Below, piece by piece: positions 12,444 to 50,531 of a stretch of DNA of 64,000 nucleotides. The notes beneath the pieces were generated by a model that saw nothing but the letters and a program-made list of their open reading frames with translations, was not told the DNA's origin and did no database searches. The DNA lies in NCBI GenBank assembly GCA_964016885.1, contig OZ024742.1, forward strand, positions 51,894,001-51,958,000, read 5' to 3'. A program made the translations under genes and the position numbers. This DNA comes from Eledone cirrhosa (taxonomy: Eukaryota). Position 1 is the stretch's first letter; each line of letters starts with the position of its first letter.

Positions 12444-12520
<77 letters not shown>

Positions 12521-20324: not shown

Positions 20325-21124
20325 CATGTAACCAACCTGTTTGCTGAAAATCATGAATGTTTGATTCTTATAGAATTTCTAGGAATAATCAGGAACTGAT
20401 TATTACTAGAACAATAGCATAAGGTCTTCCAAATGCTTTTAATTAAGCATACAGTGTATTGCAAAATACACTATATATACATTCTTATATATATTGCTAT
20501 TTCAGAGCGCCAAATCTAATTTTCAATTTCTGCTTGACCAGCAACCGTTTTGTATAATCAGTTTCTGATTATTACTAGAAATTCTATAAGAATCAAACAT
20601 TCATGATTTTCATCAAACAGGTCTGGTACTTGGCTTTGATAAGTACCAATCAGTACTAAACAGAGCTCTGTCTATTTTATCTCCCCCTGTTTGCTGAAAA
20701 TTTTAAGTAAGTGAGACTGTCACTACTCTAAAACAATAGCATAAGGTCTTTGAAATGCTTTTAATTAAGCATACAGTGTATTGAAAAATACACTATATAT
20801 ACATTCATATATATATAGCTATTTCAGAGCGCCAATTCTAATTTTCAATTTCTTCTTGACCGGCAACCGCTCTGTATAATCAGTTCCTGATTATTACTAG
20901 AAATTCTATAAGAATCAAGCATTCATGAATTACATCAAACAGGTGGAGTACTTGGCTTTGATATGTACCAATCAGTACGAAACATAGCTCTGTCAGCTTT
21001 ATCTCCCTCTATCTGCTGAAAATTTAAAGTAAGTGATACTGTCACTACTCTAAAACAATAGCATAAGGTCTTCGAAATGCTTTTAATTAAGCATACAGTG
21101 TATTGCAAAATACACTATATATAC

Positions 21125-21176
<52 letters not shown>

Positions 21177-27010: not shown

Positions 27011-27357
27011 GGTCATATATATGCATGTATGTATGTATATATATATATTTCTATGTGTGTCTGGGTGGTGGGGTGTGTGAGTGTTTGTATGAGAATGTTT
27101 GCTGTTTATATACGCCTGAAGATATATGTATATATATATATATATATGTGTGTGCGTGTGTGTGCATGTGTGTATGTTTGCGTTATGTGTGTAACAACTG
27201 TTACAGGCGGCGCGCCGTTCGAAATACTCAATGTTTTTACGAGGTCCGATTCGTTTGGTTTGTATTCCACAACTAGGCTGTAGTGTGCGCAGTGTACCCT
27301 GAGCGGATCTACATCGAAATAATTATAATATACAAATTAAATTTGTACATAGGCTGC

Positions 27358-28463: not shown

Positions 28464-29380
28464 ACACACAAATACACTCATAGATACAAACATACATACT
28501 TATAAGCATGCATGCATACGTATATGCATCAATCCATACATGCATATATAGATATATACGTACATATCTATATATACACATACACACATGTATATACGTA
28601 TATAAATTAGCAGTGGCACTAAGATAACGTTAAGTGTAATAGGGGTTGTATATGAAAGCATATGCTATAGGATTCTATACAATAAACATATGGTAACTAC
28701 GCTATCAAAGGAAAAATTATTTTTCATTACGAAAAAGTCATTTTTTTAAATTTTTATCCATAGAATGAAAGTAGTAGGCGAGAATGCCAGATAGCGCTCT
28801 TTCCAATTCATTAATCTCTCAGTAGCGACATACACTCAACCGGTACTGTCTAACATTGAAATAAACTATATACATTTTGCATGATGAACATTTCTGGAGG
28901 TGCTCACTTGCATATAGAAAATAAAATAAGTTTGGCTACAAATACTCATTTCTATTTAGTCCAAATGTGGCTGGTTATAATTAATTAGCAGTAGGACTAA
29001 GATTTGGCATAATGAACATTTGCTGTATATAGAGATAGGGAGAGATAGGGGCGGGGAGATATTGATGGAAAGATAGATAGACAGACATATATATATAAAT
29101 ATATATTAAAAGAGAGAAGTGAGATAAATTGATAGATAGATATGTTTCTTTATTAGCCACAGGGGCAAAAGGAAGGGGACAAATACAAAGGGGGAAGTTT
29201 ACATACAATGGAAACGTGTAAAATATTATCACAAATACAATTTAAACATTAGTCGATTTTCCCCAATAGGGGGAGACATTACATATGGGTAACATATACC
29301 CCCGAAAAAAATGTGCAACCCTCATCTCCAGGAGTACGAAGAGTTTGTACCCCTTTCCTCTCTTCCTCTTTTTCTTCAAC

Positions 29381-32300
29381 CTACAGGCTTATATAGAGAG
29401 ATTCTCGCCACTTTCACCCACCTTTCAAAAACTTGCTGGGATACAGCACCTCTCTCTCCATCCTGATTCTTCTTCCAAAGTGGTATTTAAAAAAAAAATA
29501 AGTTGTGGGCCGGAGAGAAAGGTGTCTGACCTCAGCCCTTTCAACCTTGTCCACCATACAACCTCTTTCGCCATAGCTATCACACAAAGGAAAACCGCCT
29601 CTCATTCGTTTTTGAAGAAGGCTGGTGGTTTGATCATGACAATGGGCTCGGTGGTCAACCGAATTGGTACCACTCGTGACAATAGTCGATCTACATAGCC
29701 CCAGAGGTCGGTAACGCCCGGACAGTGTATGAATGCGTGCGTGACGGTTTCTTCGTCTCGCACGCACCTCGGACAGATCGTTTTCGAAGGGTCCATGCCC
29801 GGGCGCCCATGTCTGTAGAGCTTGTCTAGAAATGGTAGAGATCCTCGGCAGCACTGCCAGGCCAGGGAATTTTGGAAGTTGTCCATCGGTCCCGGGCGGA
29901 AGGTCCTACTGAACAGACTGGCCAGTTCGTCCTCCTCTACGCCTAGAATGTCACCGAGCGCGTCGTCGCACTTGCTGCGGATCAATCCTCTATAGAATGA
30001 CGAAGTGGAGTCTCCACTGAGCGCCGGGTCCGCCTGCCAGAGAGCTGTGAGTGCCTGATCACATTCGATGTGCCAGTCGCCCATATTCCTCGGTCCTTGC
30101 TTGAGCCAGGATTGCAGCTCGGTCAGCAAGACGAGTCGTGGGAGGCTCGCGTCCGGTGAGGAATACGTAGAGATGTCGAAGCCTGTGCGCGTGTTTGCGC
30201 ATCGTCAACCTCTGCAACCCCAGCCCTCCGTTCGAAGGGTGTTGGCAGCAGATGGATCTTCTCAGCAAAGGAGCCCGCCTCTTCCAAAGGAATTGGAAGA
30301 GCGCGCGCTCCATTTTGGTGAGCGTTGTGGCTGGAAAGGAAGGACGGTCAAACGGTAGTAGATGGCGGACGCTATAAAAGTGTTCGCCACCTCCTCTCGA
30401 CCTTTCAAGGATAGTTTGCACTCGGCCCACTTATGGGTGAGTGCAAACACCTTGGCCGCCACCTCATTCCAGTTCTTCTCCACCTGGAGGTCCGGACCAA
30501 ACCAGACCCCTAGCAGCTTTACCGGTCCTTCCGTCCAGCATCCGACGACGCCATCGGAAGGCATCGGTCTGCCTCTCCACGATCCGAGTTGCAAACCGAT
30601 GGACTTGTTCCGGTTCAGCTTCGCTCCTGTGAAACTTGCGTATTCCTTCAGTAAGGTGCCAACCTCCTCGATTTGCGAGGTGCTTGAGGCCATCACGGTC
30701 ATGTTGTCAGCGTAGGCCGACGCCGCCTTTCGCAGTCTCGGTTCCAGAGGGATGCCCTGCAATAGCTTCAACTTCCGCAGTAGTGGCTCGAGAGTCAGTA
30801 CGTACAGAAGGGAGGAGAGAGGGCATCCCTGTCAAATGAATCGCGTGATATGGAACGACTCCGAGAGGTAGCCGTTCACCTTGACCCTTGAGCAGATGTT
30901 GCTGTTGTGCATTGCAGCAATCTAGCCTCTGAACACGGGTCCGAAGCCTGCTGCCTCGAGCACCGCATGCAGGTAACGATTGTCAACCCTATCGAAAGCC
31001 TTAGACTGATCCATGTTGATCAGGGCCTCACCGAAGCCAGGTTTACACCCTACCCTCTCTATGATGTATCGCATGAGGTGGAGGTTGTCGTGTATGGACC
31101 TGGTCGGGATTGCGCATGTCTGTGCTTCTCCCACCAGGTTCTCGACGACAAGCGCCAGCCTCTTTGCCAACACCTTGGCCACAATCTGTAACTCTGTGTT
31201 TAGCAGAGTTGTGGGCCGGAAGTTGACTATGTGATCCCCCTTATTATCGTCCTTCCTGACTATTGTGACTACGCCCCCGGTCACAGAACTGGGAATTCTC
31301 CCGTTCTGCTGCCAGTTGCAGTAGACCGCTTCCAGGAGACCGGATAATAAGTCCGGCATTGCTACGTAAAATTCGTAGGGTAGACCGTGGAGATCTGGAG
31401 ATTTGCGTTTGCGGCATTGGCTCAGTGCGTCCCCTATCTCGGCGGCTGGAATCGGTTTTTCGCAGAGCTTCGCCTCGCTGTCCGAGAGTCGCGGCAGGCC
31501 GTCGAGGTATGGACCGAAATCCATAGATCCTCCAAGCGTGCCGCCCTGCCCGAACAGTTGAACAATGTGCCGCTGAAAGGCCGCGCACATCTGCTTCGGT
31601 TCGCGTCTCACGGGTCCGTCTTAGTTCTTCAAAGACCGAATCGTGGATTTTTGCCACTTTTTGCCTCCGTCACTCAGGCCCAGCTAACAGCTTTGGCTCC
31701 CTCGTTTCCCAGAGCACATACTTTACTTCTGACAACGCAGCCCTCGTGCTTTGCGTCGAAGAACTGGTACAAGGCCGTTCTCGTTGCTAGCACGCTGGCT
31801 ACTTTGACACTTCTAATTGCCTCTTCCACTTTATCTACCAGTTCCTTCTCGGTCCTATTTCTATTTAACGCTAATTCTTTACTAAACACTAAGGAGTCTA
31901 ATCTAACTGCCCTCTTGAGAGAGTACCACCATCTGTTGTTGACAATGGCCCCTGTCAAGTGCTGTTTAACTAAAGTGCTAATCCGTCTACTGTAGGCTTT
32001 GCATGTCGGTAACGACAAGTTCAGATTCCAGTAGCCCGGTGCTTGTCTATGGGATCTATCAAGGTTGACCATGCAGGTCACTAGTTTGTGATCTGAATAG
32101 GCAACCATGAACATTTGTGGACAGCTTAACATGTCCCTATCCTTAGTTCTAACTAGCACCATATCTAGGTACGATCTAGATGTTCCGCTACGATTAGTCC
32201 ACGTTCACAGTGGCACAGTCGGAAAATCTAGTCGATATTTATCGGCCAGGTCAACTCGGCCGATTAACTGTTTGATGCTGTTACACACCCCTTTATCGGA

Positions 32301-32769
32301 ACATGCCCCTACATAGTCCCAAATGTGCATCTAGGATTCCATTCCAGTCTCCCACCAACAGCAGGGAGCGGAAGGTTCCAAGAAAAGTCTCTAGACGTAT
32401 GAAGAAGTCTGGCTGCGGTGTCCCGGATTGGGCATATGCGGCCACCAGCCTGAAGGCTCCACCTTCACTACCGTCAACATCTAGTACCACCAGTCGACCC
32501 TCCGGGTCCAGATGTACCGTCTGTGTTACGAGGTCCAGGTGCTTCCGCAGCAAAACGGCGACCCCACCCCCACCTCCCGGGTGACAGAGAAATGCGTAGA
32601 TCTCAATGTCGTCGAACACGGCGGCCAGTTGTCGCTCGCTGTGGATCCTGGACTCGCAAATGACTACTACATCCATACTGTGTAATCTGAGGTCGTTTAA
32701 GAGTTTGCCCTGTTTCCAGAGCATCCCCAGGCTGCGTACATTCACACATCCAACTCTTATATTGGCCAT
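29381..32769 (-). pseudogene. Copy A ORF2 pseudogene (APE endonuclease-RT-zinc finger)
   Basis: ORF pieces 32293-32769, 31674-32162, 30922-31611, 30262-30771 and 29602-30129. YADD is mutated to YADN, with frameshifts and stops. Confidence 0.92.
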
Positions 32770-32809
32770 GTTGTTGCTGAAAAGTTAAAAGAAGAGAAAA
32801 TGAAATCAC

Positions 32810-34560
32810 TCACCTCTTCGTCTCCTGGGGACGGTGGTCTCTGGCGTGGTGGGGACGGAGATGTTTGGTGGGGAGGAGGTGTCAGGTATGTCGGGGTGTC
32901 TGGGGTGGGGGTGGGGAAACATTTCAAAAGGACGTGGTTATAGGGTTTAACGTAGGGGTTACTTGCGTCGTTAGGAAATTTTTCTTTTAACTGTTTATGT
33001 GAGTCGATGCAGATCCTAATCATTTTGAGATTAGGATTCTCCGAAGAGTGTGTAAAAGTTTTCCCTTCGGTCTCCACCGAAGTGTTTTTATATATGGTGT
33101 CTGTTAAAGTTTTATTGTTAGTATTTATGTAGGTGTAACATTTTTGTTGTGTTGTGTTACTTTTTGTTTGTGGTTCTTGTGTGTGTTTACGTTTTGTAGT
33201 AGGTGTTTTGTTTTCAGGAGAGGGTGTTTTTGTTTGTGCTGTTTGCGTCACTTGTGTTGGTGTTTGTGTGTTTGTTGCATTTTTGTTTGTGTTATGTCTT
33301 TTCTTTTTTATTTTTACTGGTCGAAAAGGCTCTCCCTCATCGTCACTGAGTGACGATAATGAGGCCTCATCCTTGTTATTGGGGAGTGGTACATTTTGGG
33401 GCGCTGTTATGCGTATGGGTGTTTCTAGAGTTGTTTTAGGTGGGGAGGGTTGGGTGGGACTGTGTTTGTCGTTTGTTTTGTTGTCACTATTTTGTATGTT
33501 GTTGTTGTGGTGGTGGTGGTGGTGATTGTTGTGCTGGTGTTGTTAGGTGTTGGCAGTAATGCCTTTTTTTGGCTAGTTAGCCGAGGACAGGAAGCTCTCA
33601 GGTGACCCCTGCTTAGGCAGTGGTAACATGAGGGCCGCCTACCCTCGACCGAAATTTTATGTATATAAGCCCATCCAGCAGCACACGTTCCGGGATCCTA
33701 GCTATTCGTTCTGGTGTCATTTGGACCAGAATTTCCAGGTTAGTACCACTGAACAGGTCGCCGGAGGACTAATCTACCGATATTATTGAGTCTTTTTCTA
33801 GGTTTAAAATTCCACATAGTACCCACCAAATATCAATGTTTGGTGTGATACTTTTGATTTTGATTTTCTGTGGTCTTTTCCCCATGTAAGTGGGGAAAAA
33901 GGTGAACATGGGTGACACAATTGGCGACACTGAATATTTCTGTGCCGTCAGTTGGTCTTTCATCAGAATGGATAAACTCCCGTAGAGTCTACCCTTCTGA
34001 ATGAAAGCAATGTCTTTTAAGGCATCTTCTAAAACCAACTCAATTTCGCCTTGTGGAAGTTGAGTCGGTTTTCGGGTTCTGTTTGAGACAGTCCTGAAAA
34101 CCACAGTTTTCAAAGCAGCTTCTCTTCGCAAATCTGGGGGAGAGTTTATGGAGAAGGATCCGTCTCCCCAAAAGTTATGTACTGTCTGGCGTTATTCAAA
34201 AGCTCATTTGCATTTGAAATATCTAGTAGCTTACCGTTTTCTTTACGGTTTGCGCAAACGATATCCTTGTCGTTTACTTCATTGTTGCAGTTATTGTTCT
34301 TGTTGTTGTTGTTATTGTTCTTGTTGTTGGTGTTGTTTTCGTTCATAGCATTGTTGTTTTTGTTGTTGCTGGTGCCACTCGTTGTGTCGTTTTTGTTCAT
34401 TGTTTCACACTTTTTGTTTTGGTTTGTTGCTATGGCAACATCAAGATGTCGGTTAGCGGGTGGAGAAAATCCTTTCTCTTGCTGACCTTTGTCTTTGACA
34501 TCTGCTACTATGACAGTGGTAGGGGAAAGCTGTAAACATATCTTCCCCTTTCCTCCTTGG
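32810..34560 (-). pseudogene. Copy A ORF1 pseudogene (Asn-rich N-terminus, zinc knuckle, Pro/Thr-rich linker)
   Basis: ORF pieces 34146-34400, 33769-34131 and 32757-33251 are homologous to ORF1 of copies C and D. Confidence 0.88.
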
Positions 34561-34744
34561 AAAAAATTGTTTATGAACTATTTCGCCTAAAGGCGTCGAA
34601 TATTTTGAGAGACTGACCAGATCAAAATTTGACCTGGAAGTCCCTCAACAAATTGGTATTAAAATGAGGGTTCACAGTTAAGAGTTTCTATAAAAATTTA
34701 GGCAGAACTTACCCAGCAAGTTTCACGCGTGTGTCTATCCCAGA

Positions 34745-34765
34745 GATAGATAGATAGATAGATAT

Positions 34766-34859
<94 letters not shown>

Positions 34860-34918
34860 CATGTTAGATAGAAAGATAGATAGATAGATCATGTTAGATA
34901 GAAAGATAGATAGATAGA
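34745..34918. repeat. (GATA)n spacer between copies A and B, with a duplicated 30-bp variant unit
   Basis: CATGTTAGATAGAAAGATAGATAGATAGAT occurs twice (34860-34919). Confidence 0.95.
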
Positions 34919-35568
34919 TTTCTTTATTAGCCACAGGGGCACAAAAGAAGGGGACAAATACAAAGGGGGTGTTTACATACAATAAAAACGTGTAAAATGT
35001 TATCACAAATGGAATTTAAAAAGTTAGTCGATTTTCCCCAATAGAGGGAGACAGTTTATATGGGTAACACATACCCCCGAAAAAAAATGTGCAACCCTCA
35101 TCTCCAGGAGTACGAAGAGCTTGTACTCCTTTCCTCTCCTCCTCCTTTTCCTCAACCTACAGGCTGATATAGAGAGAAGGCCCATTCACTCGGGCCATTC
35201 TCGCCACTTTCACCCACCTTTCATAAAACTTGCTGGGGTACAGCACCTCTCTCTCCATCCTGATTCTTCTTCCAAAGTGGTATTTGAAAAAAAGAATCAG
35301 TTGTTGGCCGGAGAGAAAGGTGTCTGACCTCAGCCCTTTCAACTTTGTCCACCATACAACCTCTTTCGCCATAGCTATCACACAAAGGAAAACCGCCTCT
35401 CCTTCGTTTTTGAAGGAGGGTGGCGGTTTGATCATGACAATGGACTCGGTGGTCAACTGGATTGGTCCCACCCGCGACAATAGTCGTTCTACATAGCCCC
35501 ACAGGTCAGTGACGCCCGGGCAGTGTATGAATGCGTGCGCGACGGTTTCTTCGTCTCGCACGCACCTC
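34919..35568 (-). mobile_element. L1/Tx1-like copy B, 5'-truncated (650 bp) with 23-bp TSD
   Basis: Nearly identical to the 3' end of copy C. AGATAGAAAGATAGATAGATAGA occurs at 34896-34918 and 35569-35591. Confidence 0.95.
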
Positions 35569-35840
35569 AGATAGAAAGATAGATAGATAGATAGATAGAT
35601 ATATTTCTTTATTAGCCACAGGGGCACAAAAGAAGGGGACAAATACAAAGGGGGAAGTTTACATACAATAAAAACGTGTAAAATGTTATCACAGATGGAA
35701 TTTAAAAGTTAGTCGATTTTCCCCAATAGAGGGAGACAGTTTATATGGGTAACACATACCCCCGAAAAAAATGTGCAACCCTCATCTCCAGGAGTACGAA
35801 GAGCTTGTACTCCTTTCCTCTCCTCCTCCTTTTCCTCAAT

Positions 35841-38800
35841 CTACAGGCTGATATAGAGAGAAGGCCCATTCACTCGGGCCATTCTCGCCACTTTCACCCA
35901 CCTTTCATAAAACTTGCTGGGGTACAGCACCTCTCTCTCCATCCTGATTCTTCTTCCAAAGTGGTATTTGAAAAAAAGAATCAGTTGTTGGCCGGAGAGA
36001 AAGGTGTCTGACCTCAGCCCTTTCAACCTTGTCCACCATACAACCTCTTTCGCCATAGCTATCACACAAAGGAAAACCGCCTCTCCTTCGTTTTTGAAGG
36101 AGGGTGGCGGTTTGATCATGACAATGGACTCGGTGGTCAACTGGATTGGTCCCACCCACGACAATAGTCGTTCTACATATCCCCACAGGTCAGTGACGCC
36201 CGAGCAGTGTATGAATGCGTGCGCGACGGTTTCTTCGTCTCGCACGCACCTCGGACAGATCTTTTTTGCAGGGTCCCCGCCCGGGCGCCTATGTCTGTAG
36301 AGCTTGTCTCGAACTGGTAGAGCTCCTCGGTAGCACTGCCAGGCCAGGGACTTTTGGAAGTTGTCCATCGGTCCCGGGCGGAAGGTCCTACCGAACAGAC
36401 TGGCCAGTTCATCTTCCTCCACGCCTAGAGTTTCACCGAGCGCGTCGTCGCACTTGCTGCGGACCAACCCTCTATAGAATGACGAAGTGGAGTCTCCACT
36501 GATCGCCGGGTCCGCCTGCCAGAGGGCTGTGAGCGCCTGAGCACATTCGATGTGCCAGTCGCCCATTTTCCTCGGTCTCTGCTTGACCCAGGACTGCAGC
36601 TCGGTCAGTGAGACGAGTCGTGGGAAGGCTCGCCTCACGAACGGGGCCCACACCGGTTGTCCGGTGAGGAATACGTAGAGTTGCCGCAGCCTGAACGCGT
36701 GTTTGCGCATCGTCAACCACGGCATCCCCAGCCCTCCGTTAGAAGGGTGTTGGCAGCAGATGGATCTTCTTACCAAAGGAGCCCGCCTCTTCCAAAGGAA
36801 TCGGAAGAGGGCGCGCTCCATTTTGGCGAGCGTTTTGGCTGGACAAGGCACGACGGTCAAGCGGTAGTAGATGGCGGACGCTATAAAAGTGTTTGCCACC
36901 TCCGCTCGACCTTTCAAGGATAGTTTGCACTCGGCCCACTTCTGGGTGAGTGCAAACACCTTGGCCGTCACTTCGTTCCAGTTCTTCTCCACCTGGAGGT
37001 CCGGACCAAACCAGACCCCGAGCAGCTTTACCGGTCCTTCCGTCCAGCGTCCGACGACGCCATCGGAAGGCATCGGTCTGCTTCTCCACGATCCGAGTTG
37101 CAAACCGATGGACTTGTCCCGGTTCAGCTTCGCTCCTGTGAGACTTTCGTATTCCTTTAGTAAGGTGCCGACTTTCTCGATTTGCGAGGCGCTCGACACC
37201 ATTACTGTCACGTCGTCGGCGTAGGCCGACGCCGCTTTCCGCAGTCCCGGTTCCAGAGGGATGCCCTGCAATAGCTCCAGCTTCCGCAGTAGTGGCTCGA
37301 GAGTCAGTACGTACAGAAGGGAGGAGAGAGGGCATCCCTGTCAAATGAATCGCGTGATATGGAACGACTCCGAGAGGTAGCCGTTCACCTTGACCCTTGA
37401 GCAGATGTTGCTGTTGTGCATTGCAGCAATCTAGCCTCTGAACACGGGTCCGAAGCCTGCTGCCTCGAGCACCGCATCCAGGTAACGATTGTCAACCCTA
37501 TCGAAAGCCTTAGACTGATCCATGTTGATCAGGGCCTCACCGAAGCCAGGTTTACACCCTACCCTCTCTATGATGTATCGCATGAGGTGGAGGTTGTCGT
37601 GTATGGACCTGGTCGGGATTGCGCATGTCTGTGCTTCTCCCACCAGGTTCTCGACGACAAGCGCCAGCCTCTTTGCCAACACCTTGGCGACAATCTGTAA
37701 CTCTGTGTTTAGCAGAGTTGTGGGCCGGAAGTTGACTATGTGATCCCCCTTATTATCGTCCTTCCTGACTATTGTGACTACGCCCCCGGTCACAGAACTG
37801 GGAATTCTCCCGTTCTGCTGCCAGTTGCAGTAGACCGCTTCCAGGAGACCGGATAATAAGTCCGGCATTGCTATGTAAAATTCGTAGGGTAGACCGTCGA
37901 GACCTGGAGATTTGCGTTTGCCGCATTGGCTCAGCGCGTCCCCTATCTCAGTGGCTGAAATCGGCTTTTCGCAGAACTTCGCCTCGCTGTCCGAGAGTCG
38001 CGGTAGGCCGTCGAGGTATGGACCGAAATCCATAGCCTCTCCCGGCGCGCCGCTCCCCCCGAACAGCCGAGCAAAGTGCCGCTGAAAAGCCGCACATATC
38101 TGCTTCGGCTCACGTATCACGCGTCCGTTTTGGTCCTTCAAAGACCGAATCGTGGACTTGTTGCCACTTTTTGCCTCCGTCACTCGGGCCCAGCTAACAG
38201 CTTTGGCTCCCTCGTTTCCCAGAGCACGGATTTTGCTTCTTACAACGCAGCCCTCGTGCTTTGCGTCGAAGAACTGGTCCAAGGCCGTTCTCGTTGCTAG
38301 CACGCTGGCTACGTTGCCACTTCTAATAGCCTCTTCTACTTTATCTACCAGTTCCTTCTCGGTTCTATTTCTATCTAACGCTAATTCTTTACTAAAAACT
38401 ATCGAGTCTAATCTAACTGCCCTCTTGAGAGAGTACCACCATCTGTTGTTGACAATGGCCCCTGTCAAGTGCTGTTTAACTAAAGTGCTAATCCGTCTAC
38501 TGTAGGCTTTGCTTGTCGGTAACGACAAGTTCAGCTTCCAGTAGCCGGGTCCTTGTCTATGGGTTCTATCAAGGTTGGCCATGCAGGTCACTAGTTTGTG
38601 ATCTGAATAGGCAACCATGAACATTTGTGGACAGCTTAACATGTCCCTATCCTTATTTCTAACTAGAACCCTATCTAGGTACGATCTAGATGTTCCGCTA
38701 CGATTACTCCACGTCCACAGTGGCGCAGTCGGAAAATCTAGTCGATATCTATCGGCCAGGTCAAATCGGTCGATTAACTGTTTGAGGCTGTTACACCCCC

Positions 38801-39278
38801 CTTTATCGGGACATGCTCCCACATAGTCCCAACGTGCATCTAGGATTCCATTCCAGTTCCCCACTAAAAGCAAGGAGCGGGACGTTCCCAGAAAAGTCTC
38901 TAGACGTTTGAAGATGTCTGGCCGCGGTGTCCCGGATGGGGCATATGCGGCCACCAGCCTGAACGCTCCACCTTCACTACCGTCAACGTCTAGGACCACC
39001 AGTCGACCCTCCGGGTCCAGATGTACCGTCTGTGTTACGAGGCCCAGGTGTTTCCGCAGCAAAACGGCAACTCCGCCCCCACCCCCCGGTTGACAGAGAG
39101 ATGCGTAGATCTCAAAGTCATCGAAGATGGGGGCCAGCTGTCGCTCGCCGTGGATCCTGGACTCGCAAATGGCTACCACATCCAAACTGTGCGACCTGAG
39201 GTCGTTTAAGAGTTTGCCCTGTGTCCAGGGCATCCCCAGGCCGCGTACGTTCACACATCCAACTCTTATATTGGCCAT
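35841..39278 (-). pseudogene. Copy C ORF2, single frame with two premature stops (37431-33, 37341-43)
   Basis: ORFs 37431-39278 and 35841-37271 are in the same frame. APE motifs (NVRGL, SDH), QGCPLS, YADD, CPRC-x8-H-x4-C. Confidence 0.93.
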
Positions 39279-39311
39279 GTTGGTGCTGAAAAGTTAAAAG
39301 AGGAAAAGAGA

Positions 39312-41217
39312 TCACTCACCCTTCGCCTCCTGGGGACCAGGCCGCACGATTTCCATGGGGGTGTTGGAGGGGTTGTCTGGATGGGTGGTGGTTTCCGGCG
39401 GGGTGGGGACGCAGATGTTTGGTGGGGTGGGGTCTGGTGGGATGGGGGTGTCTGGGGTGGGGAGGCATTTGAGAAGGACGCGGTTGAGTGGTTTCACGCA
39501 GGAATTCCCCACATCCTTCTCAAATGTTTCTTTTAGGGACCTATAAGTTTGTATAGGGACCCTAATCAGTTTTAGGTTCATTTTTTTGCTATTTTTTATA
39601 GAGTGGGCGAAAATTTTCCCTTCGGTGAAAACCGAAGGGTCGTTCGTAATGGTCTCCATTAGTGTTTTGTTTTCAGTGTTTATGTAAGTGTAAGTGTAAT
39701 TTTCTTGTGTTGTGTTTGTTTTTGTCTGTAGTTCTTGTGTGTGCTTTCGTTTTGTTGTAGGTATTTTGTTTTCAGGAGGTGGGGGTTTTGTTTGTGATAT
39801 TTTTGTTGTTTGTGTTGGTGGTTGTATGTTTGTGGTAGTGTTTGCTGGTTTTTTTGCTTTTGTGATGTCTTTTCTTTCTTTTCGAGCGATGGGGTTCTCC
39901 CTCGTCTTCACTGGGTGATGGCGAGATAGCCTCATCTGTTGTAATGTCTGTGTGATTGGGGAGGGGTATGTCTTGGGGAGCTGTTGTGTCTGTATGTGAT
40001 TTTGCAGTGGTTTTAGGTGGAGTGAGGTTGGGTGGGACTGTGTTTGTTGTGGTTATTTTTGTGTGTTGGTGTTGTTGTTGTAGTGGTGGTGTTGGTGGTT
40101 GTGTTGTTTTGATGGGTGTTGGCAGAAGAGCCTTTTTTTGGTTCATTAGTTTAGGACAGGAAGCCCTCAGGTGACCCCTGCTAAAGCAATGGTAACATGA
40201 AGGCCGCCTACCCTCAACCGAAAGGTTTATGTAGGTAAGTCCGTCCAGGAGTACACGCTGTGGGATCATAGCTATTCGCTCTGGGCTCATTTGCACCAGA
40301 ACTTCAATGCTAGTCCCATTGAATACATCTCTGGGGGACTTGCCTACTGACAGTATTCTGTCTTCATCAAAATTGATGAAGCCGCACAGTATCCACCATA
40401 TGTTCACCTTTGGTGTGACACTTGTGATTCTGATCTTTTGTGTCCTTTTTCCCATGTATGTAGGGAAAAAGGTGTACAGGTTGGATACAATTGGCGACAC
40501 AGAGTAATTTTGGGCCGTCAATTGATCCTTCATCAGTACCGAAATACTCCCAAAAAGTTTGCTTCTTTGAATGAATGCAATATCATTCATTGAATCTTTG
40601 AAAACCAGTTCAATATCTTTCTGTGAGAATTGGACTGGTTTTCGGGTAGAATTGGAAACTGTCCTAAAAACTATCGTTTTGAGAGCAGTTTCCTTGCGAA
40701 TTTCTACCGGAGAATTGATGCTGAAAGCACCATTTTTTTCGAAGGTGACATATCTCTTAGCGTCCTTTAAAAGGTGTTCAGCATTTGTTATGTCGAGATA
40801 TATCAATTGTTCTTTCTTTTGAACTTTCTCCGCAAAGGAGATTTTTGGTTTCTTTGTGGAATCCGTATTGGTGGTGTTGTCATTATTGTTGTTATTCTTG
40901 TTGTCAGCGATGTTGGTATCATCCGTATTTTCCTTGGTGTTGTTGTTGTCTTTGATGCTGGTGTTATTGGCGTTGTCTTTATTTTTTTCTTTGTTGTTGT
41001 TATCATTGTTGCTTTTATCATCATTATTGGTTTTGCTGTTATTTTTGTTGTCATTGAGCTGTTTGGTGTCATTTGTGTTGTTTGGATGTGAATTCGTTTT
41101 TTTATTTTCATTTTGTCTTTCCATCTCTATAGTATCTAGTGAAGAAGACGTTGTTGACTGCGAGCTTTGTAGTCTTAACGCCTCTCCACCACCATTATCG
41201 TTGGACGCAGCGTTCAT
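39312..41217 (-). pseudogene. Copy C ORF1 (nucleic-acid chaperone, CCHC knuckle), one frameshift
   Basis: 481-aa ORF with CYHCFSRGHLRASC continues in ORF 39312-39935. The shift is probably at the 7-nt homopolymer 39849-39855. Confidence 0.9.
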
Positions 41218-41703
41218 AACGTAATCAAAATTTTACAATATTTTTTCCAAGATTCGATGGAGAAAAATTTTTTAAATGGATATTCCGCCCCTGAAGGGGC
41301 GAAAATGAGTTGACCCACCACCTGAAGGTCCAGACGGGTGGTCAAGTTACACAAGGATATAAAATTGAACTAAAAACTCACGTTTTTTCCTTACATAAAT
41401 TAACGGAAACTTCTCCGCGAAGTGACACACGACTGATAGAGAGATAGAGAGATAGATAGATAGATAGATATATAGATAGATAGATAGATTTCTTTATTTA
41501 CCATAAAGGCATAAAAAGAAGGGACAAATACAAAGGGGGAGTTTACATATAATCGAGTAAAAAGGGTGTAACATGAAAATAATCGAAAATAACCTCAAAA
41601 GGGAGGGGACGTGATGGCGGTTGCACACACCCCCGAAAAAGTGTGCAATCCTTTGCCCGGGGAGCACATGGAGAAGGTGCTCCCCTCTCCTTTACTTCTT
41701 TAC

Positions 41704-44700
41704 CTACAGGATGGTATACAGAGAAGGCCCATTTACACGAGCCATTCTCGCCACTATCACCCACCTTTCATAAAACTGCCTGTGGCCAAGCACCTCTCTC
41801 TCCATTCTTATCCTTCTTCCGAAGTGATATCGGAAGAAGTAGACCAGACTATGGCCAGAGAGGAAGTTGCCTGACCTCAGACCTTTCAATCGTGTCCACC
41901 AAACAACCTCTTTCAACATGGCTATTACGCACAGAAAAACCGCCTTTGCTTCCTTTGTGAAGAGGGGAGGCGGTTTGATTGTCATCACGGACTCGGCGGT
42001 CAATTTAATCGGCGCCACCCGCGACAGCAGTTGTTCGGCGTAGCCCCACAGATCAGCCACGCCCGGACATTGCACCAATGCGTGCGCTACGGTTTCTTCG
42101 TGACGCACGCATCTAGGGCAAATCTTTTTTGAGGGATCCCTGCCCGGGCGCCCGTGTCTGTAGAGCCTCTCTCGAACGGGTAGAGCCCCTCGGTAGCACT
42201 GCCAGGCCAGTGACTTCTGGAAGTTGTCCATTGGTCCTGGGCCGAAAGTCCTACCGAACAGGCTGGCCAGTTCGTCTTCTTCCATGTCCAGCGACTCTCC
42301 AAGGGTGTCATCGCCCCTGCTAGCCACCAGCCCTCTATAGAATGATGAGGTGGATTCTCCACCGATGGCCTGGCCCGCTTGCCAGAGAGCCCTGAGCGCC
42401 TGAGCACACTCAGTGTGCCAGTCTCCCAGTTTTCCGGATCTTTGCTTGACCCAGGACTGTAGCTCGGTGAGTGAGACGAGTCTCGGAAAGGCTCGTTTCA
42501 CGAACGGAGCCCACACCGGTTGACCAGTGAGGAATACCTGTAGGTGCCGTAGCCTTAATGCGTGCCTACGCATCATCAACCACGGCATCCCCAGCCCTCC
42601 TTTCGAAGGTTGTTGGCAGCAGATGGATCTTCTCACCATAGGAGGACGCTTCTTCCAAAGAAATTGGAAGAGCATGCGTTCCATGGTGGTGAGTGTTTCC
42701 TTAGGGCAAGGCACGACAGTCAGGCGGTAGTAAGTGACGGACGCTATGTAAATGTTCGCCACCTCCGCCCGGCCTTTTAGGGACAGCTTACACTTGGCCC
42801 ATTTCTGGGTTAGTGCAAACACCTTGTTCGTAACCTCGTTCCAGTTCTTTTCCACCTGGAGCTCCGGCCCAAACCAGACCCCAAGCAACTTTACCGGGCC
42901 CTCCGTCCAGTGTCCGACGACACCGTCAGGAGGCATCGGTTTGCCTCTCCACGTTCCGAGTTGCAGCCCGATGGATTTTTCCCGGTTCAGTTTCGCTCCT
43001 GACAACCTTTCGTACTCCTCCAGTAAGGTACCGATCGCCTCGATCTCCGAGTCGGTTGATACCATTACTGTTACGTCATCGGCGTAGGCCGACACCGCTT
43101 TGCTCAATCCTGGTTCCAGGGGGATACCCTGCAACAACTCCAACTTCCTCAGTAAAGGCTCGAGAGTCAATACGTACAGAAGGGAGGAGAGAGGGCACCC
43201 CTGTCGAATGGATCGTGTGATTTCGAACGGCTTCGAAAGGTAGCCGTTCACCTTGATCCTAGAACAGATGTGGTTGCTATGTAGGGCAGTGATCCAGCCT
43301 CTGAATCCAGCCGCCGCTAGCACCGCATCCAGGTAACCATGGTCGACCCTATCGAAGGCCTTAGACTGATCCAAGTTGATCAGGGCCCCACCGAAGCCGG
43401 GTTTGTTGCCAACCCTCTCTATGATGTATCGCATGAGGTGGAGGTTATCGTGAATGGACCTGGATGGGATAGCACATGTCTGCGCATCTCCCACCAGGCC
43501 ACCCACGACAAGCGCCAACCTCTTTGCTAACACCTTGGCCAAAATCTTTAACTCTGTGTTTATCAGGGTTATGGGCCGAAAATTATTTATACTATCCCCC
43601 TTGTTCTCGTCCTTCCTCACCAGCGTGACTACGCCCTTGGCTACAGAACAAGGAATTCTCCCGTTCTGCTGCCAATTGCAGTAGACCGCTTCGAGGAGTT
43701 CGGAGAAGAAGACCGGCATTGCTAAATAAAGTTCGTAAGGTATACCATCGAGACCTGGAGATTTGCGTCTGCTGCATTGGCTCAGCGCATCTCCGATCTC
43801 ATCAGCCGAGATTGGTCCCTCGCAGGACTCTGCCTCTTTGTTCGAGAGACGCGGCAGGCCGTCGAGGTATGGACCGAAATCCACGCCCCGGCCCGGACCC
43901 TCTCCTCCCCCGAACAATCGGGCAAAGTGCTTTTGAAAGGCCTCGCACATCTGCTTAGGCTCCCGGATCACTCGTCCATCTTCGTCTTGCAACGACCGGA
44001 TGGTGGATCGATTTCCACTCTTAGCTTCTGTCACGCGGGCCCATCCAACGGCTTTGGCCCCCTCATTACCTAGAGTACGTATTTTACTTCGAATGACGCA
44101 GCCTTCATGCTTTGCATCGAAAAACTGGTTCAAGGCCGTCCTCGATGCCAGCACTCTGGCCACATCTTCGCTCTTGATTGCCTCTTCTAATTTACCTGTT
44201 AATTCTTTCTCGTTTCTATTCCTATCGGCAGCTAACATCTTGCTATAACTTATTGATTCTGTTCTAATCTCTCTTTTGAGAGATGCCCACCATCGGTTGT
44301 TGACGATTGCACCCGTCAACCTCTCCTTAACTAATCTGCTAATCCGGTTTCTGTAAGTCTCTTTTGCCGGTAAAGACAAATTAAGTTTCCAGTAACCGGG
44401 ACCCTGTCTATGTGTTTTCTCGGGATTGACCACGCAGGTCACTAATTTGTGATCCGTGTAGCCAACCGTGCGCATTTCTGGACAGCTTAATATGTCCCTA
44501 TCCTTACTTCTAACTAAGAATATATCTAAGTACGATCTAGATTGACCACTGTGGTTTCTCCAAGTCCAGGTAGGCACAGTTGGAAAATCTAGTCGATATC
44601 TATCGACCAAGTTAAAACGGTCGAGTAACCCCTTGAGGCTGTTACACCCCCCTCTATTAGGACGTGCTCCTGCATAGTCCCAACGTGCATCCAGGATGTC

Positions 44701-45129
44701 ATTCCAATCCCCCGCTAGAAGCAGGGAACGCGACGTTCCCAGAAAAGTCTCCAAACGCTGGAAGAAGACGGGCCGTTCAGCTCCGAAAGGGGAGTAGACG
44801 GCGACCAGTCTCAAGGCCGCACTTTCACTACTGCCAACGTCTAGCACCAACAAACGACCCTCCGGGTCCGAGTGCACAACCTGTACGGCAAGACCCAGGT
44901 GTTTTTGCAGCAGTACGACAACCCCACCCCCACCTCCAGGTTGACAGAGAGATGCATGCACCTCAAAGTCATCGAAGGTGGGGGCCAGCTGCCGCATGAC
45001 GCTGATTCGAGTCTCACAGATAACCATTACATTTATACTACATGACCTGAGGTCATTTAGAAGCTTTGCTTGCTTCCAAGTTGAGCCCAGGCCACGTGCA
45101 TTCAAACATCCTACTCTTAACACATCCAT
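41704..45129 (-). CDS. LINE ORF2 protein: APE endonuclease, reverse transcriptase, C-terminal CCHC finger (1141 aa)
   Basis: Uninterrupted ORF with NARGL, GDWN, TDH, KSPGLDG, RPITL, KAFDRVDH, RQGCPLS, YADD and CPRCVRHEETVAHALVQC. Confidence 0.95.
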   Translation of the reverse strand: MDVLRVGCLNARGLGSTWKQAKLLNDLRSCSINVMVICETRISVMRQLAPTFDDFEVHASLCQPGGGGGVVVLLQKHLGLAVQVVHSDPEGRLLVLDVGSSESAALRLVAVYSPFGAERPVFFQRLETFLGTSRSLLLAGDWNDILDARWDYAGARPNRGGCNSLKGLLDRFNLVDRYRLDFPTVPTWTWRNHSGQSRSYLDIFLVRSKDRDILSCPEMRTVGYTDHKLVTCVVNPEKTHRQGPGYWKLNLSLPAKETYRNRISRLVKERLTGAIVNNRWWASLKREIRTESISYSKMLAADRNRNEKELTGKLEEAIKSEDVARVLASRTALNQFFDAKHEGCVIRSKIRTLGNEGAKAVGWARVTEAKSGNRSTIRSLQDEDGRVIREPKQMCEAFQKHFARLFGGGEGPGRGVDFGPYLDGLPRLSNKEAESCEGPISADEIGDALSQCSRRKSPGLDGIPYELYLAMPVFFSELLEAVYCNWQQNGRIPCSVAKGVVTLVRKDENKGDSINNFRPITLINTELKILAKVLAKRLALVVGGLVGDAQTCAIPSRSIHDNLHLMRYIIERVGNKPGFGGALINLDQSKAFDRVDHGYLDAVLAAAGFRGWITALHSNHICSRIKVNGYLSKPFEITRSIRQGCPLSSLLYVLTLEPLLRKLELLQGIPLEPGLSKAVSAYADDVTVMVSTDSEIEAIGTLLEEYERLSGAKLNREKSIGLQLGTWRGKPMPPDGVVGHWTEGPVKLLGVWFGPELQVEKNWNEVTNKVFALTQKWAKCKLSLKGRAEVANIYIASVTYYRLTVVPCPKETLTTMERMLFQFLWKKRPPMVRRSICCQQPSKGGLGMPWLMMRRHALRLRHLQVFLTGQPVWAPFVKRAFPRLVSLTELQSWVKQRSGKLGDWHTECAQALRALWQAGQAIGGESTSSFYRGLVASRGDDTLGESLDMEEDELASLFGRTFGPGPMDNFQKSLAWQCYRGALPVRERLYRHGRPGRDPSKKICPRCVRHEETVAHALVQCPGVADLWGYAEQLLSRVAPIKLTAESVMTIKPPPLFTKEAKAVFLCVIAMLKEVVWWTRLKGLRSGNFLSGHSLVYFFRYHFGRRIRMEREVLGHRQFYERWVIVARMARVNGPSLYTIL

Positions 45130-45162
45130 GTGGGCGGCAGAGCCAAAGGAGAGTGTAGAGAC

Positions 45163-47064
45163 CTACCTTTCCGCTTCCCGGGGTTCGGGTTGCACGACTT
45201 CCATGGGGTCGGGGGTGTTGGGTGAAGGGGTGTCTTGTGGTGGTGTGAGGTCGTCAGTGTGTGGTGGGGTTGGGGTGTTTGGAGTTGTGTTGGGGAGGGG
45301 AAGGGGAGGGGGAAAGCTTTTTAGTAGGACGCGGTTTATGGGTTTGACAGAGGGTGGTCCTACGTCCTCCTTAAAATCCTTTTTTAGTTTTTGGTAGAGG
45401 TTCATTGGGATTTTTATTAGTTTTAAATGTGGGTGGTTTTCTGACGAAACAAAGTTTACACCTTCGGTTTGTACCGAAGGATTATTGTATATGAGTTCAT
45501 TTAATTTATTATTGTTTCTGTTGATGTAAGTATAGTGTAATGTCTTTTTTTCCGATGGTGTGAGTGTTTCGAAGAGGGGAGGGGCAGGTTTGGTTTTGTT
45601 TGTTGCTGGAGGGGTGTTTTCTGTTTTGTTGGATTGTGTTGCGATTTGGGTGGGGGTTGTTTGTCCTTGTGTGTTTTGCACATGTTTTCTTTTTTTCCTT
45701 TTAATCTGTCTGAAGGACTCCGTTTCTTCCTCCGAATTCGTTGGGTTATCTTCAGTGTTGGAGGGAAGAGGTATGTTTGCTGGTAATGTTTCCGTGTTGG
45801 TTTTCTTTGTGGGGGAAATGGATGTCACTATGTTAGACTGTGTTATGTGTTGTGTCTGCGGTGGTTGTGTTGTTTTATTGAGTGAGAGGTTGGGTGGGCC
45901 TGTATTTTGTTTTGGGGTAATGTGTTGTGACTGTTTGTGTTGTGGTGGTGTTGTGGTTTTACTGAGGGACGGGTTGGGTGGGACTGAGTTTTGTTGTTTG
46001 TTTATCTGTTGTGGTGGTGGTGGTGGAGCTGGTGTTGGTAGCAGGGTTTTCTTTTTGTTGAGTTGGGGACAAGCGGCCTTCAGGGGCCCTCTGCCTGCAC
46101 AGATATGGCAGGACGGCCTTCTCCCCTCCACGCTAATGTTTATATACCCGTGGTCCTCTAATAGGATTCTGTCGGGTATTTGGGCGATGCGTTCAGGCTT
46201 CATTTGTACTACCAGCTCTATACCTGTTCCACTGAACGCATTGCCTGTGGTTTTCCCAATGGAAATCACGTTGTCATTCACTGGATCGATGAAGCCAGCT
46301 ATGAGCCAGCAGTAGTCCACATCTGGCATCATTGCATCCAGCCATATGCGTTGAGTTTTTTTCCCCAAAAAAGATGGATAAAAGGTGAAAATTTTCGAAC
46401 GAATCGGTGACAAAGCACATTTTTTTGCCGCCGATTCGTTCTTCATGATAATTGCTAGGCTTCCATACAGTCTGTCTTATCTTATGAAAGTTGTTTCATT
46501 CAGTACTTCTGTGAGTACTGTTTTGATATCTGCTTGAGAAGGCTGTTCGGGTTTTTTTGTACTGTTGTTGATGGTCCGAAACTTGACCGTTCGGCTTTCA
46601 ATGTCTTTCGTGAATTCTTGAGGCATTTTTATCAATAAAATACCATTCTCACCTTCACTTATGTATTGTTTGGCGTCCGTGATCCTTCGTACCACATCTG
46701 AAATGTTTTCCGCTATATAAGTCAAAGATTTCTTTGTTTTCTGTGCAAATGAAATCTTGTCGTCTGCTTTGTTTTCTGATATGGTGTTATTTTCAACTGT
46801 TATTTTTTTGTTTGTTGTGTCTTTGTTTGTGTTATTAGTATTGTCATGCAATTTTTCAAATTTTTTTTTTTCGTTGTTGGAATCCAAGTCCAGATTTATG
46901 TTTTCGTCATTTAATTTTTTCTCCGCAGATTCGTCCGTTTTTATTTTCATTTTTCCTTCCTTCTCTATGACGTTAGTTGGGAAGGAAGGGAGGACTAAAG
47001 CGTGCGAGCTTACAACTCTTACCGCTGTCCCCCCACCACTATTTTCGTTCGCTGCGTTTAACAT
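45163..47064 (-). pseudogene. Copy D ORF1, one in-frame TAA (46477-79) and knuckle His-to-Pro change
   Basis: ORFs 46477-47064 and 45163-46446 are in frame (IR*DRLYGSLAIIMK). Knuckle reads CHICAGRGPLKAAC. Confidence 0.9.
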
Positions 47065-47303
47065 TTCTGTTAGACGATTGAAATTTTTTACACAAAATTT
47101 TTTAAAACAGGTTTTTCACCTCTAGGAGGGGTAAAGATGAGCTGACCCACCGCCTGACAGTTCAGACGGAGGGTCAAGCTACACAATTGTATCAAAATTA
47201 AGTTTGAACTCACAAAATTTCCTCGATAAATTTGAACAAAACTTCTGTGCGAAGTGAATGACATCCACACTGTAGAACAGACGACAGCTAGATTATATAG
47301 ATA

Positions 47304-48560: not shown

Positions 48561-49742
48561 TACTCTATATCGCGTCATCACGTCCTCTCTATTGCATACA
48601 CTTTAACTTTCTCTCACTGCCTCTTCTTCTCTGAAAGAGGTCGGCTATGTTCAAATCTGGAGAGATAATGAGATTGGCTCCGTTTACGATGATAAATGTA
48701 TGTAGCAAATGTTTTCCAAAGACTCACTTTCCTGTCGCACACTCATCAGGATCTTCTTCTATCGACGTGATCACTCTGAATTAATTTCAAATATTTTGTT
48801 TCTACAAGTTTACACACGAAGACCCCCATTGGTGCTATTCGAATTAAAATGGAGAGATTATATATTTTGGTTCCATAAAATGGTCGAATATATTTCCTTC
48901 AGTAAGAGAGTAATGTTTGAATCATTTCTCAAGTTCATAGGAAATAAAAGAATCAGAAACCAAGTGTACAGGATTCAAAATAATATGAGCCTTTTTATGA
49001 AGCTATGAATCTGCTAAAATGATGATAGAGAAATATCGATATTTATGTGTATAAACTAAGGTGACATCATATCTTTGCCCTATACCCACGGCATGATACA
49101 TTTTTTTATGATTTTATTTCTTATATATGCACACAAAACCCTGCTTTACAAATTATATATAGACATTTCCTATTCATTCCTCCGTTTTCCCAGGACTACA
49201 ATTTATTAAAGTGCACATAAATTATGTATATATATATATATATAATATTCTAGCTGGACCAGTTAGCACCTAACTGGCTTTCATATGTAAAACTGTAAAA
49301 GCAAAATCTTGGAAATTAATTATATTACCTGTTTGACGGAAATATATCATGGGAATACAATTTTACTACAACATCGTTCATTTATGCAGATAGGTGTAAA
49401 CTGACGTCTAGGGAAAATAAGCTGTCATTATTCAGCCATTTTTTCCACACTTTCATTGTCCGCTTTTATTGTTTAAATAATTTCAGTCATATGACTGCTG
49501 TCACAACTTCGAATAGTCAACAAAGGGAATTTAATCACTTATATAGACCCCGTTGTTTTTTATCTTATTTTTTTCATCGGTCTCGTAAAAGTGAAAAAAC
49601 ATACTCGACCTCGATTCAAATAGATACAAATCATCAATCTGCCTATGAACAAACATACACACACACACACACACATACATACAAACATACATACATATAT
49701 AAATATATACATACATACATACGTACATACAAACATATATTC

Positions 49743-49770
<28 letters not shown>

Positions 49771-49773
<3 letters not shown>

Positions 49774-50483
49774 CATTATGAAGAGAGAAGAAACATTTAG
49801 ATATAATTAGTAATAAAATGTATCATACCTAAACTGCTCCTAGATTCCTCGACTACGTAGTTTCGTGGCATAAACAAAAACAATACATCAGAAAGATATA
49901 GAGTCCTTGCGAGGTCTGCCGACTTATCAAGAGGATACCTCATTTTACTAGTCTCAAGAACGCGTCTACACGACGTGAGAAAGATTCCCAAAAGGCGGAG
50001 AGGGAGATAGTCACGCGATATAACGGTCGAGAAACAGAGCTAAGCCTCTTATAACCCCGAAGAAAATGCCACGGAGGCGGAGGGGGTATTTATATCGAAG
50101 CCGTAGAAGAGGTGGTGAAGGAGACGAGAAGTATGAGTAATGGAAGCTTTCCAGCAGTCCCCACACTTCAAAGATTGCTCGACCAGAGGGAGTTATTAAC
50201 AATATATTTAGAAACACACAGATACATGCGGACACACACATATACATGAATGCATCCGCACCCAACCGTGAGTTAAGGGTGCCAACTTCACCGATGTTGC
50301 TCAATGAATGACTGGGACAGACCAATCCGGTTGAACCAGACTGAACCAGTATCAGAGTTAAAAATACATTATGAAGAGAGAAGAAACATTTAGATATAAA
50401 TAGTAATAAAATGTATCATACCTAAACTGCTCCTAGATTCCTCGACTACGTAGTTTCGTGGCATAAACAAAACAAAAACAATA

Positions 50484-50488
<5 letters not shown>
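49771..50488 (-). mobile_element. Terminally redundant hammerhead-bearing element (593-bp monomer plus ~120-bp repeat) in (TA)n
   Basis: 49771-49890 is repeated at 50364-50488, with (TA)n on both flanks. No credible ORF. Confidence 0.85.
49846..49935 (-). ncRNA. Complete type I hammerhead with UUGAUAA (U3-A8) core
   Basis: Minus: TCCTC-TTGATAA-GTCGGCA...TGCCAC-GAAA-CTACGTAG-TC-GAGGA. 5-bp helix I, palindromic ACUACGUAGU helix III, GUC site. Confidence 0.85.

Positions 50489-50531
<43 letters not shown>

What the first reader, a model, noticed from the sequence alone, without database searches (positions are those of the whole stretch)
49771..50488. 1.2-mer of a 593-nt hammerhead monomer: footprint of reverse transcription around a circle
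The insert is one monomer plus ~120 bp of near-identical terminal redundancy, within (TA)n. It starts (5' on the minus strand) inside the ribozyme's loop II, so it holds one complete and one 3'-half hammerhead 593 nt apart. This is the product expected when an RT goes more than once round a circular RNA, or from a PLE partial-tandem pLTR. The monomer is larger than the retrozyme units I know of.
Basis: partly seen in the sequence, partly recalled or inferred. Interest (0 to 1): 0.7.

Follow-up and report, generated by a model that had tools for sequence, protein, structure and literature searches.

The report
Penelope-copied hammerhead retrozyme, 593-base unit
This is one of thousands of young copies of a protein-free 593-base repeat carrying a predicted self-cutting RNA motif; its copies end at two fixed sites, as a Penelope-type jumping gene in the same genome does, and were likely made by that kind of enzyme running round a small RNA circle, a long-proposed step that can now be tested.

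Summary
Observation confirmed: 1.21 units of a 593-nt monomer in (TA)n, with one complete and one half type I hammerhead. It is one of roughly 3,600 insertions (7,286 exact motif copies) of a non-LTR retrozyme.

The ends are not freely permuted. 3' ends sit at two sites, 80 and about 243 nt after the cleavage site. 56 of 60 head-to-head insertions pair one of each, and none pairs like with like. A co-resident Neptune-type Penelope-like element has the same core and the same pairing rule (+82/+150).

Support for repeated copying of one monomer RNA:
- Units within an insertion differ by 0.4%, against 3.15% between insertions.
- 48 haplotypes occur in 54 loci.
- Private variants (10 of 24 A>G) fill every unit.
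- 96.9% of copies pass the cleavage site.

Against: no RNA data; a stop zone behind a TATA-like motif; the Penelope element itself seems to use linear RNA; the driver family is unproven. 593 nt lies within published retrozyme sizes. The scan noted similar families, and probably this one, on other DNA.

The parts
49771..50488 (-). Whole insertion: one-armed, site-A-primed retrozyme copy of 1.21 units
49851..50443 (-). 593-nt monomer from one predicted cleavage site to the next (numbered C1-C593); predicted circular RNA
   Evidence: circular fold -169.7 kcal/mol, z -4.05 against 40 shuffles
49846..49935 (-). Complete type I hammerhead; predicted cut between 49851 and 49850
   Evidence: the stretch stem I 5' to core to stem II 5' is invariant in 7 of 7 aligned copies, two of them only 80-83% identical
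49924..49930 (-). Catalytic core UUGAUAA (U3-A8 covariant)
   Evidence: sequence; variant described in Schistosoma PLEs, PMC4209133 passage
49871..49916 (-). Long loop II (46 nt), predicted to hold an inner hairpin; more variable than the core
50439..50488 (-). 3' half of a second hammerhead; the insert's 5' end lies in loop II at a TA microhomology with the target; predicted cut between 50444 and 50443
   Evidence: loci L020, L009 and L026 start within about 10 nt of the same place
49771..49795 (-). Site A (C80): fixed 3' end, pyrimidine tract then an AT-rich end fused to (TA)n; the inferred reverse-transcription start of this copy. An unused copy of it ends at 50364
   Evidence: 35 of 78 arm ends
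50201..50215 (-). Site B (C242-243): the family's second fixed 3' end, not used in this copy
   Evidence: 33 of 78 arm ends
50201..50363 (-). 163-nt 'tail' between sites A and B
   Evidence: the PLE tail lies between two RT start sites, PMC11167929
50088..50094 (-). TATAAAT (C350-356), candidate internal promoter; excess 5' ends at C370-401 behind it
   Evidence: function inferred
50488..50528 (.). (TA)n target tract at the 5' side
49649..49770 (.). TA-led mixed microsatellite at the 3' side; a target-site duplication cannot be read

Best explanation
This is a non-coding hammerhead repeat (non-LTR retrozyme) with thousands of young genomic copies whose 3' ends fall at two fixed sites in (TA)n, and which is likely copied from a self-cleaved, circularised 593-nt RNA by the reverse transcriptase-endonuclease of a Neptune-type Penelope-like element. 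Steps: (1) inferred: multi-unit copies are transcribed, the hammerheads cut out a monomer, and a host ligase closes it; (2) inferred from ends that are shown: the PLE protein nicks both strands of a (TA)n tract and primes one strand at site A and the other at site B, 163 nt apart; (3) shown at haplotype level: both cDNAs read one template sequence again and again, up to 6.4 turns, through the ribozyme junction; (4) shown: the two cDNAs are joined 5'-to-5' into a head-to-head A+B insertion, or a single arm is captured on (TA)n. The window's copy is such a single A arm of 1.21 turns.
For: Ends: in the first 50 loci on contig C1 (49 classifiable), 68 of 78 arm ends lie at A or B. Two-arm insertions are A+B in 21 of 24, 22 of 22 in the BLAST-picked set and 13 of 14 in a later set (two old copies align 7-9 nt short). 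Total: 56 of 60 A+B, 4 atypical, 0 A+A or B+B. One template per insertion: divergence is 0.41% within an arm, 0.39% between arms and 3.15% between loci; at segregating sites 1.2%, 0.9% and 21% (81 loci). There are 48 haplotypes in 54 loci with a full unit. 24 private substitutions fill all copies of a position within one insertion, up to 7 copies over both arms. At positions with 4 or more copies there are 53 singletons but only 6 part-shared variants. RNA stage: 10 of the 24 private fixed changes are A>G on the sense strand against 2 T>C, whereas single-copy changes are 13 A>G and 25 T>C of 146 (Fisher p 1.7e-4). No end at the cut site: 6,458 of 6,667 genomic copies of C1-23 continue upstream through the junction; 1 of 78 5' ends lies there; 199 junction crossings show no indel. 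Partner: a PLE with RT, C-terminal GIY-YIG and CX4CX2C linker has a UUGAAAA hammerhead in 10,660 exact copies. Its 3' ends lie at +82 and +150 with similar motifs, and its two-arm insertions pair +82 with +150 in 13 of 16, never like with like (tallied by hand). 52 of 67 scored copies have an open RT-EN frame at 98-100% identity. In vitro, a PLE protein nicks and extends both strands of AT-rich DNA and starts at two internal RNA sites (PMC11167929).
Against: No RNA was seen, so cleavage, ligation and the circle are unobserved. Rfam does not recognise the motif, and 8 of 9 Xenopus retrozyme dimers did not cleave in vitro. In PMC11167929 hammerhead cleavage is not needed and uncut RNA is the main template. 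The partner PLE looks like a user of linear RNA: 20 of 37 5' ends fall at -61 to -74, about 30 nt behind a TATAAAA, with a matching depth step in two runs. The retrozyme has a weaker stop zone of the same kind: 4,787 copies at C360-379 against 5,847 at C400-419, an 18% drop (partly due to old subfamilies). The A>G excess is not significant in the later 27 loci alone (2 against 1), and the 5' neighbour bias is weak (8 of 10 U or A against 59% background). The driver is not pinned down: the monomer has no alignable homology to that PLE's repeat (best E 0.7); the 12 short PLE insertions dated are older (2.5% arm-to-arm); and other PLE families share the U3-A8 core.
Confidence: 0.68

Rival explanations
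1. The same PLE-primed A/B insertion, but the template is a linear, uncut multimeric transcript started at the TATA-like motif of a tandem copy; the ribozyme is a passenger.
For: Cleavage is dispensable in vitro. The PLE's 5' ends pile up at a likely start site. The retrozyme has a stop zone at C370-401 (cluster p 0.022 in one of three window sizes tried).
Against: About 82% of passages run through that zone. Arms reach 6.4 identical units. Nearly every insertion has its own haplotype in all units, and part-shared variants are rare (6 against 53 singletons). A linear route cannot spread a variant that arose in one unit to all units, nor lengthen an array. It may still account for a minority of insertions.
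Confidence: 0.15
2. The template is a self-cleaved linear monomer, and the RT jumps from its 5' end to its own 3' end each turn, mimicking a covalent circle.
For: It predicts the same haplotype homogeneity. One arm (L087) ends exactly at the cut site.
Against: 199 junction crossings show no indel (partly selected for by my search pattern), and 96.9% of copies pass the site. End-to-end jumps usually leave stops and added bases (recalled from R2 work, not checked here).
Confidence: 0.08
3. The circle replicates RNA-to-RNA like a viroid, and the multimeric plus strands are what the PLE RT copies.
For: High template diversity beside very young insertions, a well-folded monomer (z -4), and a sense-strand A>G excess.
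Against: No hammerhead on the opposite strand. Thousands of genomic source loci suffice to explain the diversity. No RNA data.
Confidence: 0.06
4. A DNA satellite amplified by unequal crossover or DNA circles, with no RNA step.
For: Tandem units are homogeneous within a locus.
Against: Copies are dispersed, have polar fixed 3' ends and variable 5' ends, follow the same A+B rule as an RT-encoding element, and show a strand-biased A>G excess.
Confidence: 0.03

Closest known systems
Metazoan non-LTR retrozymes (Cervera and de la Pena 2020, PMC7229834, parts 2-4 of 6 read; Li, Clavereau and Pollet 2026, bioRxiv 10.64898/2026.07.22.740005, parts 1-3 of 5 read)
   Same: Non-coding tandem units with one type I hammerhead each, short palindromic stem III, under 50% GC, thousands of copies, co-resident PLEs. 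Both papers propose circular RNA as the RT template and PLEs as the carrier.
   Different: A 593-nt unit (above the invertebrate 170-400 nt, within 51-972 bp), a U3-A8 core and a 46-nt loop II. The parts read do not describe fixed paired 3' ends, head-to-head arms or one haplotype per insertion. No homology to a PLE terminal repeat was found here, unlike 24 of 57 Xenopus families that match known elements, nearly all PLEs.
Endonuclease-positive Penelope-like elements, Neptune type (Craig et al. 2021, PMC8557442, passages read; Frangieh et al. 2024, PMC11167929, parts 1-2 of 4 read; Cervera and de la Pena 2014, PMC4209133, passages read)
   Same: Partial tandems, an inverted 5'-truncated second copy, a tail at one end only, microsatellite or AT-rich targets, two internal RT start sites, and the U3-A8 hammerhead variant.
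   Different: No ORF. The tail is 163 nt (68 nt in the co-resident PLE) against 30-40 nt in print. The strict one-site-per-strand pairing is not stated in the parts read: Frangieh saw no strand difference in start site in vitro.

Membership tests
Non-LTR retrozyme | Type I hammerhead in each repeat unit | tested here: met
   Manual consensus fit and descriptor scan; core and stems invariant in 7 of 7 aligned copies; no Rfam hit; no compensatory changes seen
Non-LTR retrozyme | Tandem units of a few hundred bases, many genomic copies | tested here: met
   Arms of up to 6.4 units; 7,286 motif copies
Non-LTR retrozyme | Non-coding | tested here: met
   The only stop-free frame of 120 codons or more lying inside the insert (134 aa) has no Pfam match
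Non-LTR retrozyme | No LTR, primer-binding site or polypurine tract | tested here: inconclusive
   The terminal redundancy varies from copy to copy, so it is not an LTR; PBS and PPT were not searched
Non-LTR retrozyme | Self-cleavage of the transcript | not testable with these tools
   Needs in vitro transcription
Non-LTR retrozyme | Accumulates as circular RNA | not testable with these tools
   No RNA holder listed
PLE-mobilised element | Two fixed 3' ends delimiting a tail; inverted and tandem insertions in AT-rich DNA | tested here: met
   same rule in the co-resident PLE
PLE-mobilised element | Sequence homology to the terminal repeat of an autonomous PLE | tested here: not met
   Only short motif likeness to the one family compared in detail and no real match in 50 GIY-YIG loci apart from one nested copy; the genome's PLE families were sampled, not listed in full
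Autonomous PLE (terminal repeat of one) | RT plus GIY-YIG ORF between the repeats | tested here: not met
   No ORF in the unit; arm 5' ends join (TA)n, the other arm or unrelated DNA, never a shared body
Viroid-like RNA replicon | Ribozymes in both polarities, minus-strand RNA | tested here: inconclusive
   No minus-strand hammerhead; other ribozyme classes only through Rfam; RNA not available

The most novel reading that the evidence does not exclude
The 593-nt circle is a viroid-like RNA replicon of an animal. It diversifies at the RNA level by A-to-I editing and RNA-to-RNA copying, and a PLE protein dimer captures it into DNA by priming both strands of one break at two fixed sites on the same circle, so that the genome holds thousands of dated snapshots of single RNA molecules.
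Probability: 0.08. Interest if true: 0.85.

Novelty: new member of a known kind. Interest (0 to 1): 0.52.

Why it matters
Rolling-circle reverse transcription of hammerhead circles by Penelope-like proteins has been proposed since 2014 (PMC4209133) and 2020 (PMC7229834). The one in vitro study read (PMC11167929) found that ribozyme cleavage is not needed. This family gives genome-level evidence on that open question: one template per multi-unit insertion, no stop at the cut site, and a strict one-start-site-per-strand rule. It also gives an internal contrast, because the co-resident PLE appears to use linear RNA. It names a concrete substrate (a 593-nt circle with sites A and B) and a candidate enzyme for a direct assay, and it predicts that a PLE dimer uses its two start sites asymmetrically.

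Tried and rejected
Rfam at gathering score and at E<=10: no hammerhead.

Sequencing runs: no RNA holder listed. Run X5 holds one 620-nt wrap-around contig of the unit. The same run also holds the PLE repeat with a (TA)n junction at similar depth, so low-coverage genomic DNA explains it, and I rejected it as evidence for a circle.

An apparent unit-specific change at C114-117 was an indel-placement artefact. The comparison was redone.

The ribozyme-conservation test (1 of 42 critical positions variable against 117 of 551, p 0.001) is inflated, because 25 of the 42 positions lie in my search pattern. Outside it, 1 of 17 varies, which is not significant by itself. The region table used coordinates off by two and is not used. 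The hammerhead scans were non-exhaustive (the one missed the window's own motif) and were replaced for the window only.

Fold-back copying of the first cDNA as the origin of the second arm: it fits some loci whose arms share a 5' point (L099, L109, L111), but not L063, where neither arm contains the other.

Hybrid retrozyme/PLE two-arm insertions: none in the 82 loci screened; L077 is an insertion next to a PLE end. No solved structure matches the PLE protein.

Rows dropped before counts: L106 (below the identity cut), the duplicate second copy in L073, overlapping loci L013, L014 and L024 (also L021), and three PLE arms whose 5' end ran off my reference.

Literature: searches and the parts read showed no description of the strict A+B pairing or of this family. 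Supplements were not opened and may bear on both claims.

Full report
What is there. The insert is 718 nt on the minus strand (50488 to 49771) between TA-rich microsatellites. It has a terminal repeat of about 122 nt at spacing 593. I number the unit C1-C593 from the base after the predicted cut. The copy runs from about C552 through one full unit to C80. The core is UUGAUAA, the U3-A8 covariant reported in Schistosoma PLEs (PMC4209133 passage). Rfam misses it. A descriptor scan finds it and nothing on the unit's other strand. The hammerhead fold costs 1.1 kcal/mol over the minimum-energy fold. The stretch from stem I 5' through the core to stem II 5' is invariant in 7 of 7 aligned copies, while loop II varies.

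The family. A 25-mer across the cleavage site occurs 7,286 times in the 3.0-Gb genome. Its first 100 places form 50 loci, so there are roughly 3,600 insertions (an estimate). I fetched those 50, 30 BLAST-picked loci, 5 wider views of BLAST hits, and 27 later ones. 3' ends are fixed at site A (C80) or site B (C242-248) and fused to (TA)n: 68 of 78 arm ends in the position-ordered set. About half the insertions have two arms joined 5'-to-5', mostly with 0-3 nt of microhomology or a short filler. Of 60 two-arm insertions, 56 pair A with B, 4 have an atypical end and none pairs like with like. One-arm copies are 12 A, 11 B and 2 other in the first set. 5' ends are scattered, and 32 of 78 arms exceed one unit. 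The longest arm is 3,787 nt, 6.4 units. The window's copy is a one-arm A insertion.

One template per insertion. Units differ by 0.41% within an arm, 0.39% between the arms of one insertion and 3.15% between loci; at 68 segregating sites the figures are 1.2%, 0.9% and 21% (81 loci). 54 loci with a full unit carry 48 haplotypes. In 108 loci, 24 substitutions are private to one insertion yet present in all its copies of the position, up to 7 copies across both arms. Variants shared by only some units are rare: 6 against 53 singletons. A read-through transcript of an existing array would pass unit-specific variants on in register and could not fix them in all units. Nearly every insertion therefore went through a monomer that was read repeatedly, in its own or a parent generation (inference). 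Ten of the 24 private changes are sense-strand A>G against 2 T>C, unlike single-copy changes (13 and 25 of 146; Fisher p 1.7e-4). This fits A-to-I editing of an RNA template. The later 27 loci alone are too few (2 against 1).

No stop at the cut site. My first sample required an intact junction, so I counted genome-wide: 6,458 of 6,667 copies of C1-23 continue upstream through GUC. The 3% loss is about what mutation and random truncation over six bases would give (my estimate). 199 junction crossings have no indel. A cut linear monomer is therefore rarely the end of the template.

The likely carrier. A GIY-YIG search led to several PLE families. [quoted passage not shown] It carries a UUGAAAA hammerhead in 10,660 exact copies. 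Its 3' ends lie 82 and 150 nt after the cut, on motifs resembling sites A and B. Its two-arm insertions pair these ends in 13 of 16 cases, with three near-A or truncated ends and no like-with-like pair. 52 of 67 scored copies have an open RT-EN frame. The copy I used as reference, L146, is itself a 1.2-mer (unit 4,979 nt, repeat 1,071 nt) but is broken in its N-terminal part and in the endonuclease. Frangieh et al. showed in vitro that a PLE protein nicks and extends both strands of AT-rich DNA and starts at two internal RNA sites that bound the 'tail'. Here the tail is 163 nt.

Against. No RNA could be examined. The same paper found cleavage dispensable. In the PLE, 20 of 37 5' ends cluster about 30 nt behind a TATA box, so this machinery seems to copy linear uncut RNA. 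The retrozyme shows a weaker stop zone at C370-401 behind TATAAAT (an 18% drop), so some of its templates may be linear, though most passages run through. The monomer is not alignable to that PLE's repeat, the PLE insertions dated are older, and other PLE families share the core. The carrier class is well supported and the exact family is not.

Verdict. This is a new member of the non-LTR retrozymes with a clear Penelope footprint. Repeated reverse transcription of one monomer RNA is strongly indicated; a covalent circle is the likeliest form (0.68) but is unobserved. The element class and the model are in print (PMC7229834, PMC4209133, bioRxiv 10.64898/2026.07.22.740005). The A+B rule and the haplotype evidence were not found in the parts read (searches; supplements unseen). 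The scan's earlier notes describe the same pattern for 310-, 422-, 467- and 478-nt families and for a 591-bp U3-A8 family, probably this one, elsewhere in this genome. I reached the end rule before opening them, and they are not counted as support. A look-up by sequence found nothing.

Noticed in passing
window 18496-21139: A 322-nt tandem array that flips orientation at about 20404. Four units on the minus strand carry a U3-A8 hammerhead-like motif (cores at 20321, 19999, 19355 and 19031). Probably a second, older two-armed retrozyme family in the same window.
   Followed up: partly
window about 29300-47100, minus strand: Three head-to-tail copies of an APE-RT-zinc-finger LINE; one ORF2 is open for 1,152 codons at 41707-45162, the others are broken.
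   Followed up: partly
window 11860-12530: A 112-nt repeat and adjacent DNA match the terminal region of a second PLE family at 88-94% (L158, L161).
   Followed up: no
L146:2273-8315 and L166-L195: A Neptune-type PLE family with a strong 5'-end cluster about 70 nt upstream of its ribozyme cut site, suggesting an internal TATA promoter and many mini-insertions made from the repeat alone.
   Followed up: partly
L152, L158, L161, L162, L163 (3' of their ORFs): Several other PLE families in this genome have UUGA-AA (U3-A8) cores, some without a canonical GAAA.
   Followed up: no
L085, L106, L200, L203, L215: An older subfamily of the 593-nt element at 80-83% identity, with the same ribozyme core and, where readable, the same or nearly the same A/B ends.
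   Followed up: partly
L112:2683-6501: The B-terminal one to two units differ from the rest of the insertion at three sites, a possible template switch or RT errors early in synthesis.
   Followed up: no
L104:5633-5691: The arm junction holds about five tandem copies of an 11-nt piece of the unit, suggesting repeated re-priming at the joint.
   Followed up: no
window 26029-27012, minus strand: A separate RT fragment (Pfam RVT_1, E 1.6e-18).
   Followed up: no
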